64,000 bases of DNA from Thermodesulfobacteriota bacterium (GCA_965209225.1 OZ242379.1:1741289-1805288), one strand, 5' to 3'. Shown: positions 55,108 through 64,000, numbered from the stretch's first letter. A program made the numbers and translations. The notes: generated from the sequence alone by a model not told the origin.

Positions 55108-55761
55108 TTAACGTATGACATGTGCGGAGTCTGTTCTTTCTTCTTGTTCAAACAGTTTTGAAAGCCAGTCCACGAATAACGAGTTTAACTGCGTTTTTGC
55201 AGTCAGGTCTCCGGTGCCGATGGCCGCTCCCATCCTGTTGGGTTTTTTTCTGGTGGCCAACCAGGCGTACAGTTTCGCTTTATCCGATTTTGTCGAGGAA
55301 AATTTTCTGGCATCGTCGGGAATGCCGTTTATGAAGGATTGCGCCAGCGGCCATACCTGATCCTGGTCTCCGATCATTTTTATTACGAAGTCTTCAATCT
55401 CTCCTCTCGAAATGTTGTCAGGCATCAGCCATACCCCGACCGCAGGACCTCTGTCGCCGTCTATGATTGTACCGCGCGGGTCGGGGTTATCCGGGGGCGT
55501 AAAACCTGCTTCAGTGAGTTTCTTCCTGATATCGTTCCACCGCTGTCTGGGACAATCGTTGCTGTCCATGACAAATCCGACGGATTTGCGTCCGGCAACC
55601 TTGGTTTCCGGACCGATATGTCTCAGAATGTTCGGGAATCCTTCGGATTCCTTTATGACAAACTCAAGATTCCGCAGACATTGGTCCCGGATATGTCTGA
55701 TGACGTGCTTGTCGTCCTGCCCTTCCACCACAAGAAGATGCTTTTTGTCAGCCTCGGCCAT
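55108..55761 (-). CDS. TOPRIM-like (DUF4435/RloB-like) protein, candidate nuclease partner of the upstream ABC ATPase
   Basis: N-terminus …KKHLLVVEGQDDKHVIRHI… (invariant Glu of a Toprim-type fold) and …GFVMDSNDCP… acidic cluster. 217 aa. 5-nt overlap with the ATPase gene. Confidence 0.5.
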   Translation of the reverse strand: MAEADKKHLLVVEGQDDKHVIRHIRDQCLRNLEFVIKESEGFPNILRHIGPETKVAGRKSVGFVMDSNDCPRQRWNDIRKKLTEAGFTPPDNPDPRGTIIDGDRGPAVGVWLMPDNISRGEIEDFVIKMIGDQDQVWPLAQSFINGIPDDARKFSSTKSDKAKLYAWLATRKKPNRMGAAIGTGDLTAKTQLNSLFVDWLSKLFEQEERTDSAHVIR

Positions 55762-55764
55762 TTC

Positions 55765-56862
55765 TTACCTTACTTCTATGTTGTATTCAGCGGCGGCGGC
55801 AAGCTCCTCTTCTGAATACCTCACGCATCTGGTTTCTCCCTCTTCCCGTTCAAGGCGAACCAGAACGCCTGAAACGTCTTCTGTCTCGGTTGCGGCCTGC
55901 GCGAAGCCTCTTACGCAGTCAAAACTGTGGGTCGTCGCGAAAACCTGGGTATTGTTTTCCCGAGCGGTCCGAAGAATCATTCTCCAGAGCTTGTGCTGAG
56001 CCGTGTAGTGAATCCCGTTTTCCGCTTCATCAATGAGAAGGAATCCGCCGCGGCAGTTCGCAAGAGCGATAGCGATACCGAACAGCCTGACAGCTCCGTC
56101 ACCGAGGCTTTTAAGGGGGACGGGGCCGTGCTTTCCAATCCTGACCACAGCCCGCCTGCCTCTCCAGCGACCTGAAGACCCTTCTTCCCCGATCATGGCT
56201 ATGCGGTCCACCGGATTATCGAGGACTATGTTAAGGGCATTGATAGCGAGGTTCTCGTCTTCAGTGAGCGTGATCTCGTCCCAGAGTTCCGCGATTGTCC
56301 TGTTGGACAAAATTTCCGGGCCCAGCCACTGCGATTTCAACGCTTCTGTGTGCTCGTTTTTGAGGGTGTCGCCTTGGATACCCCTTTTTCTTCTCCAGTT
56401 ATTCTCGGACAGACCGAAGATCAGACTGTGTTCACCCTGAAAATAAACCCTGAGGATGGGAACGTCCTTGTCTGGGAGGTCGTCTTTGTCATCTGGGTCG
56501 CCCAGCTCTATTTCGAGTTTTCCGGTGTCATTTTCCGCACCGATTTCTATTCGTGTTCCCATGGAAGGTTCCCGGCCATGAAAAAGCGCCTTGAAATCCA
56601 GGAAATTATCTTTCTCGCTGTCTTTTTTAACGCCGGAGATAAACTCTTCGCGTCCCGCGATTAATTCGGCAAGCACGGATTCATCCGCGCGGGAAGAGTA
56701 TATTTTTACTGCTTCAAGGATCGATGTCTTCCCCGTGCCGTTTTTTCCAGCAAACAGGTTTACGCGGCCTAATTCCCGAATTGAAAGCTTGTCAAAACAC
56801 CTAAATCCCCTTATTGATAAGTGAGGGATATGAAGCCCGTTATTTGGTAGTTCTTTAGGCAT
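55765..56862 (-). CDS. ABC-type (AAA_21-like) ATPase
   Basis: Walker A AGKNGTGKTSILEA, Walker B/D-loop GGFLLIDEAENGIH, H-loop ATTHS. 365 aa. Overlaps the CARF gene's stop by 8 nt. Confidence 0.75.
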   Translation of the reverse strand: MPKELPNNGLHIPHLSIRGFRCFDKLSIRELGRVNLFAGKNGTGKTSILEAVKIYSSRADESVLAELIAGREEFISGVKKDSEKDNFLDFKALFHGREPSMGTRIEIGAENDTGKLEIELGDPDDKDDLPDKDVPILRVYFQGEHSLIFGLSENNWRRKRGIQGDTLKNEHTEALKSQWLGPEILSNRTIAELWDEITLTEDENLAINALNIVLDNPVDRIAMIGEEGSSGRWRGRRAVVRIGKHGPVPLKSLGDGAVRLFGIAIALANCRGGFLLIDEAENGIHYTAQHKLWRMILRTARENNTQVFATTHSFDCVRGFAQAATETEDVSGVLVRLEREEGETRCVRYSEEELAAAAEYNIEVR

Positions 56863-61685: not shown

Positions 61686-61707
61686 GCAAACTAGGGTCTC
61701 TGCCTAC

Positions 61708-63318
61708 TTAAATATCCGTTCTCGGTGCCATCAATCCCAAACCTAGATAGCGCCCGTTCCCAACAACTAAAGTGCCTAATAAAGGTTTTTCAAAAACAAT
61801 TTCTACATGGTATAAAACACGCTCGGAAAATCTCTCGGACATAGCAAATTTCTCTGCACGAACACCATTACGGTCGAATGGTTCGCGTTGTGTGCGTATG
61901 GAATCTGCACTTGCCGCTATTCCCGTATGGCGCAATGCCTGCATAACAGACTGCGCCAAATTCCTTTCATATTCCAAGCGCATAGTTCCGGTAATTCGGC
62001 GTCCTTTACCTTTACTTATCATTGGAAGAGCAGCCGGTGTGATCGTGTACCAGGTTTGAAAGCTGTTTTGGCCATTATGATCTACTCCGTAGTGATTGAG
62101 CATTCCTAGTTCTTGGGTATAGACAAGATTCCATACGATTTCTCCAGTTGTCGGATTAATCCTTCCAATTCCAGAAAATGCCCATTCTATATCATCGGCT
62201 CTAAGTGGGCAGTTAGGAGGCACCTCAACTAGCACACGACGAATTGCACGGTCCGCATATTTATGCCCAATAGAGGGAATGGGAATAATTCTTACTCTCG
62301 AAGATTTGTCGGTTTCCTTTGCCCCGCGACCTATAAGTACACGATCAATATTGTCGGTATTTCCATGCAAAGCCTTCCGCAATCTGTCAACCGCTTTGTT
62401 TCTCAGGTCCACAACTAGTTTTGCCGATTGTGTACACGGCACTGCCACAAAAGATTCTTCATTCGAGGCTGCTCGTATTTCAAATAAAAAACGTTGCGGA
62501 GGAGAGTCATAAACTGTCTTGGCAAAACGGGGCTTCTGAGGCAGAGAGAGATATACCTTGTTTCTCTTTTTCTCTCTGATCGAAGAGAAACGATTTCGAT
62601 TCGCTTCAAACCGTGCTTCAAGACTTGCAAACGACCCTTTCTGCGGGCTAAGGATTTCTTTTCCAATGCCATTTTCACTAGGGTGATGTGCTACAAGAGA
62701 TTGACCAGCGGCGATAAAATCTGCAATATCGCTTTCGTTAAGAATGTCCGCATAGGCCCATGCCATGTCGACACCTCGCCCTAACTGATACAACCGTTCT
62801 GCTATCTTGCAGACAACTCGTGCGTTGTGTTCAGCACTTTTACTGCTGTTGAACATCCAAGCAAAAAGCAACGGGATACTCGAATCAAAAATATGTGGTC
62901 GGATATTTTTGTCAGTTCTGATCTCAGCAATTCGTTTCGGATCATTCCCAACTGCGTCAAGATCGTTGTTTGGCACATAGTTCTTGAAGGATTGACCCGT
63001 TAGAGCTTGAGGGGCCATAATCACCGGAGCTTCAAGCGCTTCCAGCCATTGAAGTGCCATCTTATCTTCGCCAGTCAGACTTCCTCCTTTTGCCGCACCC
63101 GAAACGAGTGCTTGGAACAAGCGTGCGGGGGCAGGAGGCCAACTACCAGCACCGTAATACCATCCGTCATGAAAGTAGACTGAGAGCAGAAGTGTGCGAT
63201 TCATGGTTGATTTGTCTAGATCACTTCTTAGCTTTGACATCTTTTTTAGCAAGCTCTTTGTCGAAACTGACAGTTCTGTCCATTTCGACACCAAAATTTC
63301 TAAAGGCTTCCGAAGCAT
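61708..63318 (-). CDS. large Cas5-group RAMP, Csb2-like (type I-G/I-U Cas5-Cas6 fusion family); start uncertain
   Basis: Cas5-type N-terminal motif …[36 protein letters not shown]…. C-terminal Gly-rich loop …[16 protein letters not shown]…. 536 aa from the longest start. Alternative starts 63240 and 63204. Confidence 0.45.
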
Positions 63319-64000
63319 AGCTCATAGCTAAGTCCTCAGTCAGTTCAATTTCCTGGTGCGTACCATCACGTTTTACCAGTTTCCATTTTTGCACAGCTTC
63401 CGAATCAGGGATTAGAAAACATCCTTGGCGTAGGAAAAAGTCCAAGGGAGCCGTAGCCACAGCAAGAGAAAGACCTAGAATATATTGACGCAAGGCTTGA
63501 GAGTTGTTCTCATCCCCTTCAAGTCGGCGCAAGGCTACTAAGTTTATAGTGATATCGCGCTCAATATTTCCACGGACGACTACACCACCATGTGAACCAG
63601 TGGCGGGAACGTGAACAAAACCACGTTTAGCAAGATCACTTCCCTCTCGCCCTTCTGCTTTTTGTTTTTCTTCCTCTGAAAAAACTTCAAGCGCGGCGTA
63701 ATCAAGTGCCGGATTGTATTGCGCTGAACGTGTCAGGACATCTATATCCCAAGCGCGAATTACTGACTGCACAATTCTCGGGAATTTAGCTTGAGTATCT
63801 CGAGAATCCCATACACCAAAGACTAGTGAAGTTGGCGCAAGTTTTGCCAGGGCTGAAACATTTCCCGAGTCAAGGAAGGATTCAAACGCTTTTTTTACCT
63901 CGTCAGCTAGTTCAGAGGACCGAATGAGTGCATCTCCGAGGCGGTGACTGACCTCGAAAATTGAGATGCTTTTCTCAGCATCTTGATCATATTCAATTTG
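63221..64000 (-). CDS. Cas7-group protein, Csb1-like (type I-G/I-U), 5' end beyond window
   Basis: Frame is open to the window edge (…[30 protein letters not shown]…). Co-directional with, and overlapping, the Csb2-like gene. Assignment from memory of family motifs only. Confidence 0.35.

What the first reader, a model, noticed from the sequence alone, without database searches (positions are those of the whole stretch)
55108..64000. Composite CRISPR-Cas-like operon: type I-G-like Cas7/Cas5-6 fused in one transcription unit to a stripped-down type III module, a CARF-HEPN effector and an ABC-ATPase/TOPRIM pair, with no array or adaptation genes in 64 kb
Nine minus-strand genes run without gaps: Csb1-like Cas7 > Csb2-like Cas5-6 > HD-less Cas10 > Cas11/Csm2 > Csm3 > Csm4 > CARF-HEPN > ABC ATPase > TOPRIM-like. 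Start and stop codons overlap throughout (TAATG at 60205-60209; ATGA at 58105-58108; 5-24 nt overlaps elsewhere), which argues for one co-translated unit. The gene content fits no standard subtype. There are two Cas5 paralogs (Csb2-like and Csm4) and two Cas7 paralogs (Csb1-like and Csm3). Csm5 and a standalone Cas6 are absent, and there is no HD on Cas10. Cas3, Cas8, cas1, cas2 and any repeat array are absent from the window. The only Cas6-like activity would have to come from the Csb2-like Cas5-6 fusion. That suggests a type III signalling complex that either borrows crRNA from a neighbouring type I-G system, or a genuinely hybrid effector. The two abortive-infection-type genes at the 3' end could act as additional cOA-independent or cOA-dependent effectors.
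Basis: partly seen in the sequence, partly recalled or inferred. Interest (0 to 1): 0.9.

Follow-up and report, generated by a model that had tools for sequence, protein, structure and literature searches.

The report
Type I-G CRISPR operon with embedded mini type III
This is the downstream end of a CRISPR-Cas operon in which a stripped-down type III signalling module sits inside a type I-G system and probably shares its guide RNAs, an arrangement that recurs in many bacteria but that I found described nowhere.

Summary
Nine tightly packed minus-strand genes encode Csb1/Cas7g (cut by the window edge), Csb2 (Cas5-Cas6g), an HD-less 492-aa Cas10, Csm2, Csm3, Csm4, a CARF-HEPN RNase, an ABC ATPase and a Toprim-like DUF3226 protein. 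All were confirmed with curated HMMs and a structure search.

The "missing" cas3, cas8, cas1 and cas2 are a window-edge artefact. A MAG contig whose Cas10 is 95% identical carries cas3g-cas8g directly upstream. It also carries a divergent csb2-paralog/cas4-cas1/cas2 operon.

The five-gene cassette (Cas10 without HD, Csm2, Csm3, Csm4, CARF effector; never Csm5 or a classical Cas6) is a widespread lineage. It occurs in three settings:
- inside I-G loci at varying positions;
- alone with I-G-type repeats and a stand-alone Csb2 C-terminal (Cas6) domain;
- as an orphan.

A Csb2-family gene or domain lies directly upstream of this Cas10 in most relatives.

The best reading is two separate effector complexes, I-G Cascade/Cas3 and a minimal Csm that signals by cyclic oligoadenylate. 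Both would be fed by Csb2-processed crRNAs from one I-G array. A truly hybrid effector is unlikely.

The ATPase/Toprim pair is an independent neighbour. A related genome keeps it next to an I-G locus with no type III cassette.

Verdict: a new variant of a known kind, of moderate interest.

The parts
63221..64000 (-). csb1 / cas7g (type I-G Cas7), C-terminal 259 codons; the N-terminus lies beyond the window end
   Evidence: TIGR02570 9e-20, PF09617 6e-20, PADLOC Cas7g. The full-length 348-aa orthologue is in L001 7426-8472. dN/dS 0.14 against L001.
61708..63204 (-). csb2 (Cas5-Cas6g fusion; pre-crRNA endonuclease and 3'-hairpin binder of I-G). 498 aa from the ATG at 63204; the maximal ORF reaches 63318.
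   Evidence: TIGR02165 4e-82, PADLOC Cas56g/Cas5g 1e-84. The start was chosen by homologue consensus. His504 (536-aa numbering) is nearly invariant in the subfamily and sits where T. sulfidiphilus Csb2 has catalytic H503. G-rich loop [10 protein letters not shown].
60207..61685 (-). cas10 (Csm1-like), 492 aa. No HD domain. Palm1, 4-Cys zinc finger, Palm2 with GGDD, and the C-terminal helical domain are present.
   Evidence: TIGR02578 1.8e-80, PF22335 8.5e-31, PF18211. Aligns to Csm1 residues ~232-773 only. GGDD, D253/D255 and C150/C153/C172/C175 are invariant across 20 family members. dN/dS 0.21.
59707..60207 (-). csm2 / cas11 small subunit, 166 aa from the ATG that overlaps the cas10 stop (TAATG)
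   Evidence: TIGR01870 5e-10, PF03750 1e-9. Overlap read.
59028..59705 (-). csm3 (type III Cas7 backbone and target-RNA nuclease), 225 aa
   Evidence: TIGR02582 1.4e-45. Aligns to solved Csm3 with the IGGSDNPV motif that carries the catalytic Asp (D34).
58105..59049 (-). csm4 (type III Cas5), 314 aa
   Evidence: TIGR01903 3.6e-20 (above cutoff), PADLOC Csm4 2.7e-51.
56855..58108 (-). CARF-HEPN effector RNase (TIGR02710 / Csx1-Csm6 family), 417 aa from the ATG in the ATGA overlap
   Evidence: TIGR02710 3.5e-54, PF09670 2.3e-26, PADLOC CARF_HEPN 1.9e-69. Weak full-length alignment to T. thermophilus Csm6 (5fsh) with the HEPN motif RNGSLLAH.
55765..56862 (-). ABC/AAA_15 ATPase (PADLOC PDC-M38A, AbiLi-like). 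An adjacent, independent defence-candidate gene that overlaps the CARF-HEPN stop by 8 nt.
   Evidence: PDC-M38A 1e-82, AbiLi 7e-51, AAA_15/AAA_21. Frameshifted in L001. Present without any type III genes in L082.
55108..55761 (-). DUF3226 Toprim-like protein (PDC-M38B), partner of the ATPase

Best explanation
The region is the 3' part of one long defence operon. A complete type I-G CRISPR-Cas interference module (cas3g and cas8g lie just beyond the window; csb1 and csb2 are inside it) is followed by a minimal type III-A-like cassette (HD-less Cas10, Csm2, Csm3, Csm4) and its CARF-HEPN effector.

Proposed mechanism:
1. Pre-crRNA comes from an I-G-type array that is not in the window (36-nt repeats ending ATTGAAGC in relatives).
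2. The Cas6 domain of Csb2 cuts it, possibly together with the second Csb2 paralogue encoded upstream. This gives crRNAs with the canonical 8-nt 5' handle.
3. These crRNAs load two separate complexes.
   a. I-G Cascade (Cas7g, Cas8g, Csb2) recognises DNA and recruits Cas3g.
   b. A Csm5-less Csm complex (Cas10, Csm4, a Csm3 filament, Csm2) recognises transcripts.
4. On target-RNA binding the intact Cas10 cyclase makes cyclic oligoadenylate, probably cA4.
5. The oligoadenylate activates the CARF-HEPN RNase, giving non-specific RNA degradation and growth arrest.
6. Csm3 cleaves the bound target and switches the signal off.
7. With no HD domain, the type III arm has no DNase of its own.

The type III arm would therefore act as a transcript-sensing backup that shares spacers with the DNA-targeting I-G arm.

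The ATPase/Toprim pair downstream is a separate, OLD/Gabija-like candidate defence module that merely abuts the operon.

Shown here: the gene identities, motif conservation, synteny and repeat types. Inferred: crRNA sharing, the cOA species, and the existence of two separate complexes.
For: - Gene identities.
- HD absent; cyclase and zinc-finger residues invariant.
- Csm3 catalytic Asp and HEPN RNxxxxxH motif.
- All cas genes are under purifying selection against L001 (dN/dS 0.09-0.28).
- The full I-G set and the adaptation genes sit next to the cassette in L001.
- The same cassette is embedded at different positions in I-G loci with three different Cas8g types and a single I-G array: L002 and L003, L078, L084/L085.
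- Stand-alone versions carry a 255-330-aa protein that matches only the C-terminal Cas6 half of Csb2 profiles, plus arrays with the same repeat architecture (stem, 4 nt, ATTGAAGC): L080, L012, L013, L042.
- A Csb2 gene or domain lies directly upstream of the short Cas10 in most close relatives that have upstream sequence.
- No Csm5-like second Cas7 was found in any short-Cas10 locus, whereas long HD-bearing Cas10 loci often have one.
- Csb2 is experimentally shown to make an 8-nt handle (preprint 10.1101/2022.08.08.503147).
- Csb2 has been used as the Cas6 for a type III-B complex (10.1101/2023.06.23.546230).
- Type III systems that use type I crRNAs are established (PMC5576922, listed).
Against: - No array, crRNA or transcript data exist for this genome. 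The array is not in the 64 kb, and in L001 it is cut off by the contig end.
- Canonical Csm needs Csm5 for 3' capping and maturation (PMC5389561), so how a Csm5-less complex is finished is unknown.
- The genome apparently has two Csb2 paralogues (seen in L001). The one phylogenetically linked to the cassette elsewhere (PDLC01778 type) is not the one adjacent to cas10 here.
- The cA4 assignment rests on a weak alignment to TtCsm6 (E 2e-3) plus general knowledge.
- Single-transcript status is inferred from spacing only. The promoter and terminator scans were at chance level.
Confidence: 0.7

Rival explanations
1. A Csb2-type Cas6 domain is an integral subunit of the minimal type III complex. It stays on the crRNA 3' hairpin and caps the Csm3 filament in place of Csm5. 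The complex would then have type I-like crRNA architecture, and Csb2 would physically couple the two arms.
For: Csm5 is consistently absent from this lineage. A Csb2 gene, a stand-alone Csb2 Cas6 domain, or an extra Cas6g domain fused to Csb2 lies directly upstream of cas10 in most relatives. Csb2 stays bound to the cleaved 3' hairpin in I-G. Csm5 is the 3' cap in canonical Csm.
Against: This rests purely on synteny. Orphan cassettes without any nearby Csb2 exist (L004, L079, L081). In L002 cas2, not csb2, precedes cas10. Type III complexes generally trim the 3' end. No interaction data exist.
Confidence: 0.2
2. Two independent, merely adjacent systems. The type III cassette uses its own array and Cas6 elsewhere in the genome, and its position after csb2 is an accident of defence-island packing.
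For: Only 64 kb of the genome is visible. Defence genes cluster. The unrelated ATPase/Toprim pair also overlaps the operon, which shows that tight spacing alone does not prove functional coupling.
Against: The arrangement recurs across relatives whose Cas10 is only 50-66% identical, and with different I-G variants. Composite loci carry one array and one adaptation module, with the cassette wedged between the I-G effector and adaptation genes. Stand-alone cassettes use I-G-type repeats and a Csb2-derived Cas6.
Confidence: 0.07
3. A genuinely hybrid single effector in which Cas7g/Csb2 and Cas10/Csm subunits assemble on one crRNA.
For: The genes are co-operonic and translationally coupled. Type I-D shows that type I/III chimeras can evolve.
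Against: Both subunit sets are complete on their own (large subunit, Cas7, Cas5, and a small subunit in the type III set). The type III cassette occurs without any I-G genes, and I-G occurs without it. The position of the cassette relative to the I-G genes varies.
Confidence: 0.03

Closest known systems
Canonical type III-A (Csm) systems, e.g. S. epidermidis, S. thermophilus, T. thermophilus
   Same: Cas10 with GGDD cyclase, Csm2, Csm3 with the catalytic Asp, Csm4, and a CARF-HEPN ancillary RNase. The profiles hit III-A models above their curated cutoffs.
   Different: No HD domain on Cas10. No Csm5. No stand-alone Cas6. No adaptation genes or array of its own. Embedded in a type I-G operon.
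Type I-G (formerly I-U) CRISPR-Cas, e.g. G. sulfurreducens, T. sulfidiphilus
   Same: Csb1/Cas7g and the Csb2 Cas5-Cas6 fusion are in the window. In L001 there are also Cas3g, Cas8g (Csb3 type), a Cas4-Cas1 fusion and Cas2. Relatives have 36-nt repeats ending ATTGAAGC with a 4-nt spacer after the stem, as described for Tsu I-G.
   Different: A five-gene type III cassette is inserted after csb2. L001 carries a second Csb2 paralogue in the adaptation operon.
Type III systems that use type I crRNAs in trans (M. mediterranea III-B with I-F; H. ochraceum III-B processed by Csb2)
   Same: A type III effector without its own Cas6 or array relies on a co-resident type I system. Csb2 specifically has served as the Cas6 for a type III complex.
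   Different: Here the type III genes are physically inside the type I operon. They belong to a distinct Csm5-less, HD-less lineage with conserved Csb2 synteny, and they are III-A-like rather than III-B.
Reduced single-Cas7 type III subtypes (III-F, III-H, III-G)
   Same: A minimal subunit set with one Cas7. Some lack arrays and are thought to recruit crRNAs in trans (PMC12669027).
   Different: Those subtypes have inactivated cyclases, active HD domains and no CARF effectors. This cassette is the reverse: an active cyclase, no HD, and a CARF-HEPN effector.
OLD / Gabija GajA / PARIS AriAB / AbiL-type ATPase-Toprim defence modules (for the two 3' genes)
   Different: Split into two small proteins of the PDC-M38 candidate family. 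No experimental defence data are known to me. Not linked to the type III cassette elsewhere.

Membership tests
Type III-A (Csm) CRISPR-Cas | Cas10/Csm1 large subunit with Palm/cyclase domains | tested here: met
   TIGR02578 271.6 bits (cutoff 170). GGDD and DxD are invariant in the family.
Type III-A (Csm) CRISPR-Cas | N-terminal HD nuclease domain on Cas10 (present in about 65% of III-A loci, PMC11229360) | tested here: not met
   The alignment to solved Csm1 begins at residue ~232. The protein is 492 aa against ~750-800 aa.
Type III-A (Csm) CRISPR-Cas | Csm2, Csm3 and Csm4 subunits | tested here: met
   TIGR01870, TIGR02582 and TIGR01903 all score above their cutoffs.
Type III-A (Csm) CRISPR-Cas | Csm5 (second Cas7-like RAMP capping the crRNA 3' end) | tested here: not met
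   There is no room for it between csm4 and the CARF-HEPN gene (ATGA overlap). No second Csm3-like hit in the window or in any short-Cas10 locus.
Type III-A (Csm) CRISPR-Cas | Dedicated Cas6 and an adjacent CRISPR array | tested here: not met
   No cas6 gene and no array in 64 kb. Only the Csb2 Cas6 domain is available.
Type I-G CRISPR-Cas | Csb1 (Cas7g) and Csb2 (Cas5-Cas6 fusion) | tested here: met
   TIGR02570 and TIGR02165 score above their cutoffs. The putative catalytic His is conserved.
Type I-G CRISPR-Cas | Cas3g and Cas8g (Csb3/Csx17) | tested here: inconclusive
   They lie outside the window. They are present directly upstream in L001, whose Cas10 is 95% identical (PADLOC Cas3g 5.5e-179, Cas8g 3.2e-56).
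Type I-G CRISPR-Cas | Cas4-Cas1 fusion, Cas2 and an array with 36-nt repeats | tested here: inconclusive
   Not in the window. Cas4-Cas1 and Cas2 are in L001. Arrays were seen only in more distant relatives.
Csx1/Csm6 CARF-HEPN effectors (TIGR02710) | N-terminal CARF domain plus C-terminal HEPN domain with an R-X4-6-H motif | tested here: met
   TIGR02710 184 bits (cutoff 84) over residues 22-401. RNGSLLAH aligns with RNSALLVH of TtCsm6.
Csx1/Csm6 CARF-HEPN effectors (TIGR02710) | Activation by a specific cyclic oligoadenylate | not testable with these tools
   cA4 is inferred from similarity to the TtCsm6 family only.
OLD-family / Gabija-like ATPase-Toprim nucleases | ABC ATPase plus a Toprim catalytic domain with a conserved Glu and a DxD-type acidic cluster | tested here: met

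The most novel reading that the evidence does not exclude
The Csb2-type Cas6 domain (as full Csb2, as a stand-alone C-terminal domain, or as an extra domain fused to Csb2) is a stoichiometric subunit of this Csm5-less type III complex. It would hold the crRNA 3' hairpin and replace Csm5. The lineage would then be a distinct type III subtype that co-evolved with type I-G, with a type I-like, untrimmed crRNA and one processing protein that partitions guides between a DNA-targeting arm and an RNA-sensing arm.
Probability: 0.2. Interest if true: 0.7.

Novelty: new variant of a known kind. Interest (0 to 1): 0.5.

Why it matters
If the shared-guide model is right, one array, one adaptation module and one processing enzyme arm two mechanistically different effectors from a single operon. 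One arm degrades DNA through Cas3. The other senses transcripts and triggers cOA-dependent RNase activity. That is a compact, built-in answer to phage escape from PAM or seed mutations. It is also a natural test case for how crRNAs are partitioned between type I and type III complexes.

The cassette is among the smallest cyclase-active type III effectors: four subunit types, a Cas10 of about 490 aa, no HD and no Csm5. This makes it attractive for studying what Csm5 is really needed for, and possibly for RNA-detection tools.

The lineage is abundant in public data: 840 Cas10 relatives at E<=1e-10 among the 8000 candidates scored. Yet it is not singled out in the 2025 CRISPR classification update or in the other papers I could search.

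Tried and rejected
- Exact-sequence look-ups of the window's Csb2 and Cas10 found no record, so the window's own contig could not be extended. L001 (Cas10 95% identical) was used as a proxy.
- Sequence searches of the solved structures (PDB) for Csb2, Csb1 and DUF3226 gave nothing. The Csb2 catalytic His was therefore placed by position and by conservation only.
- The promoter and terminator scan was at chance level and says nothing about transcription units.
- The plasmid tblastn search returned only a distant Arcobacter III-A locus. It has an HD-less Cas10 but also normal cas6 and csm5. This shows that HD loss alone does not define the lineage.
- The Makarova 2015 and 2020 classification papers are not held, so prior mention there cannot be excluded.
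- Literature searches for I-G/III hybrids and for natural Csm5-less III-A systems found no description.
- I considered that the ATPase/Toprim pair might be cOA-linked effectors. I rejected this because of L082 and because the pair is absent from every other cassette locus.
- PADLOC pAgo-type hits for ORF 13186-14409 were rejected. Pfam shows a Schlafen AlbA_2 / HATPase_c_4 protein.

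
Full report
**What is in the window**

ORF listing and translation show nine co-directional minus-strand genes between 55108 and the window end.
- Csb1/Cas7g. Only the last 259 codons are present, because the reading frame continues past 64000.
- Csb2, the Cas5-Cas6g fusion (TIGR02165, 4e-82).
- A 492-aa Cas10 (TIGR02578, 1.8e-80).
- Csm2, Csm3 (1.4e-45) and Csm4.
- A TIGR02710-family CARF-HEPN protein (3.5e-54).
- An AAA_15/AAA_21 ABC-type ATPase (PADLOC PDC-M38A 1e-82; AbiLi 7e-51).
- A DUF3226 protein (PDC-M38B).

The TAATG and ATGA start/stop overlaps are real. Junctions range from a 22-nt overlap to a 22-nt gap.

Csb2 most likely starts at 63204 (498 aa), as its homologues do.

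A SWIM-SNF2 helicase gene follows after a 250-nt gap and is probably a separate unit. No CRISPR array exists anywhere in the 64 kb.

**State of the type III proteins**

- Cas10 aligns to solved Csm1 structures only from residue ~232 onward, so the HD nuclease domain is missing.
- In an alignment of 20 family members (50-88% identity) the GGDD motif, the upstream DxD and all four zinc-finger cysteines are invariant.
- Csm3 keeps the IGGSDNPV motif with the catalytic Asp.
- The CARF-HEPN protein keeps an RNGSLLAH HEPN motif that aligns with that of T. thermophilus Csm6.
- Against a MAG contig whose Cas10 is 95% identical (L001, an uncultured Spirochaetia bacterium), all cas genes have dN/dS of 0.09-0.28.

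The module is therefore reduced but not decayed. It should still sense RNA, cleave it and make cyclic oligoadenylate. It cannot cut DNA through an HD domain.

**The missing genes are a window-edge effect**

L001 extends about 6 kb further upstream. Directly before csb1 it encodes Cas8g (Csb3 type, 3.2e-56) and Cas3g (5.5e-179). Divergently, it encodes a second Csb2 paralogue (573 aa, PADLOC PDLC01778 type, 1.5e-106), a Cas4-Cas1 fusion and Cas2. The contig ends about 950 bp after cas2, which is where an array would be expected. The system is thus a complete type I-G locus with a type III cassette appended to its effector operon. It is not a Cas3-less or adaptation-less oddity.

**The cassette is a widespread, conserved lineage tied to type I-G**

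The Cas10 has 840 relatives at E<=1e-10 among the 8000 candidates scored. Nearly all of the best 120 are about 480-540 aa (five are shorter, 393-477 aa), and they carry only Palm2 and Csm1_B Pfam domains.

Gene neighbourhoods came from nine look-ups and one metagenome scan. I annotated them with HMMs built in-session and checked them with PADLOC. They show a constant block: short Cas10, Csm2, Csm3, Csm4 and a CARF effector. None has a second Cas7-like gene. By contrast, loci with long, HD-bearing Cas10 in the same scan often carry a Csm5-sized Csm3 paralogue.

The block occurs in three settings.

(A) Embedded in I-G loci, at different positions and with three different Cas8g types:

| Locus | Gene order |
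|---|---|
| L078 | cas3, csx17, csb1, csb2, [cassette], cas4/1, cas2, array |
| L084/L085 | cas3, cas8g, csb1, csb2, [cassette with a Cas_APE2256 CARF protein and a PDDEXK_9 protein], cas2, cas4/1 |
| L003 | csb1, csb2, [cassette], cas3, cas8g, cas4/1, cas2, array |
| L002 | csb1, csb2, cas3, cas8g, cas2, [cassette], cas4/1, array |

(B) Stand-alone compact loci (L080, L012, L013, L042). The gene directly before cas10 is a 255-330-aa protein that matches only the C-terminal, Cas6-like half of Csb2 profiles. These loci have their own arrays, and L080 also has Cas4-Cas1 and Cas2.

(C) Orphan cassettes (L004/L005, L079, L081).

Every array seen in settings A and B has 36-nt repeats built as a stem-loop, then 4 nt, then ATTGAAGC, with compensatory stem changes between loci. 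L042 ends in ATTGAAAT instead. This is the architecture reported for T. sulfidiphilus I-G, where Csb2 cuts 4 nt after the stem and leaves a canonical 8-nt handle. Composite loci carry only one array.

**Csb2 linkage**

In close relatives with upstream sequence, a Csb2-family gene or domain immediately precedes the short cas10 in the large majority. These are the window, L001, L003, L006, L009, L011-L013, L078, L080 and L084/85, plus contig-cut fragments in L007, L008 and L015. The exceptions are the orphans, L002 and L016.

Most close homologues of the window's Csb2 are 720-750 aa. They carry an additional C-terminal Cas6g-like domain related to the stand-alone domains and to the C-terminal half of the L001 paralogue. 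The window's Csb2 lacks this extension, but L001 encodes the paralogue separately.

The window's Csb2 keeps a nearly invariant His at position 504 in 536-aa numbering. This is the position of catalytic H503 in the characterised enzyme. The equivalence is inferred from position, because no solved Csb2 sequence was available.

**Mechanism**

The most economical reading is two separate crRNA-guided complexes fed from one array by Csb2-type processing. I-G Cascade with Cas3 targets DNA. A minimal Csm complex, on binding a transcript, makes cOA that activates the CARF-HEPN RNase.

There is precedent. Csb2 has been used as the Cas6 for the H. ochraceum III-B complex, and type III-B uses I-F crRNAs in Marinomonas (PMC5576922).

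A single hybrid particle is unlikely. Each module has a full subunit set, and each occurs without the other.

What replaces Csm5 is unknown. Csm5 normally caps the crRNA 3' end and recruits PNPase for maturation (PMC5389561). The conserved Csb2-domain synteny makes a hairpin-bound Cas6 cap an attractive but untested possibility.

**The ATPase/Toprim pair**

The pair is not part of the CRISPR system, for these reasons:
- Among the cassette loci it is found only in the window and L001.
- The ATPase is frameshifted in L001.
- In a related genome (L082, DUF3226 88% identical) the pair and the same SNF2 helicase sit beside an inverted I-G locus that has no type III genes.
- Neither protein has a CARF or SAVED-like domain match.

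**Novelty**

Hybrid type I/type III loci are acknowledged generically. CRISPRCasTyper assigns a 'Hybrid' class. Hoikkala et al. 2024 simply renamed such loci by their type III subtype, and reported that 35% of III-A Cas10 proteins lack HD.

The 2025 classification update mentions neither I-G nor Csb2, and its class 1 section describes no type I/type III composite. Searches for Csb2 with Cas10, for I-G/III-A hybrids and for natural Csm5-less systems found no description of this cassette. The 2015 and 2020 classification papers could not be read.

I therefore rate it a new variant of a known kind. It is a type III-A-derived, HD-less, Csm5-less, Csb2-dependent lineage that is habitually integrated into type I-G loci. 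The components and the logic of guide sharing are established, and the apparent lack of cas3, cas8, cas1 and cas2 was an artefact.

Noticed in passing
L001 1995-3716 (minus strand), just beyond the window end: A second Csb2 paralogue (573 aa, PADLOC PDLC01778 type) heads the divergent cas4-cas1/cas2 operon. It shows no BLAST match to the window's Csb2. It is 46% identical to the Csb2 that sits directly upstream of cas10 in L006, and it is related to the stand-alone Cas6-like domains. It lacks the His that aligns with H504 of the window's Csb2.
   Followed up: partly
P0245-P0358 (homologues of window 61708-63204); L084/L085 10001-12211: Most close homologues of the window's Csb2 are 720-750 aa because they carry an extra C-terminal Cas6g-like RAMP domain, i.e. 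two Cas6-like domains in one protein. The window's Csb2 lacks it.
   Followed up: partly
window 51520-54858 (minus strand): A 1112-aa SWIM zinc-finger SNF2 helicase (strong PADLOC DpdE and ZorD-type hits to the helicase core). It is conserved next to the ATPase/DUF3226 pair in L001 and L082. It is possibly a third partner of that pair, or a housekeeping SNF2 protein.
   Followed up: partly
L001 14824-15916: The PDC-M38A ATPase gene is split into 291-aa and 72-aa pieces in the MAG whose Cas10 is 95% identical. This is either a frameshift or an assembly error. The neighbouring cas genes are intact.
   Followed up: no
window 41467-42750 (plus strand): A KAP-family P-loop NTPase matches the PADLOC single-gene defence candidate PDC-S20 (5.7e-117), about 12 kb from the CRISPR operon.
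   Followed up: no
window 30231-32165 (plus strand): A 644-aa P-loop protein (weak nSTAND5, AAA_19 and Schlafen-helicase hits; weak Nhi and AbiO hits) lies in the lowest-GC stretch of the window (GC 0.39 against about 0.48). It may be a horizontally acquired defence gene.
   Followed up: no
window 13186-15547 (plus strand): A Schlafen AlbA_2 / HATPase_c_4 protein is followed by two DDE transposase fragments. The PADLOC pAgo-type hits to the first protein are probably spurious.
   Followed up: partly
window 10332-10679 (plus strand): A tmRNA gene (tag peptide AEPINALAA). Together with housekeeping genes such as CTP synthase, RNase II/R, CcmF and MgsA, it indicates that the window is chromosomal.
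   Followed up: no
window 44882-48572 (plus strand): An RTX calcium-binding repeat protein is followed by a 592-aa animal-type haem peroxidase (PF03098, 5e-140). This is an unusual bacterial pairing.
   Followed up: no
window 49113-50420 (minus strand), tandem repeat at 49240-49283: A Cache-domain membrane protein with a perfect 21-nt tandem duplication that encodes a repeated EEESSEM motif near its C-terminus.
   Followed up: no
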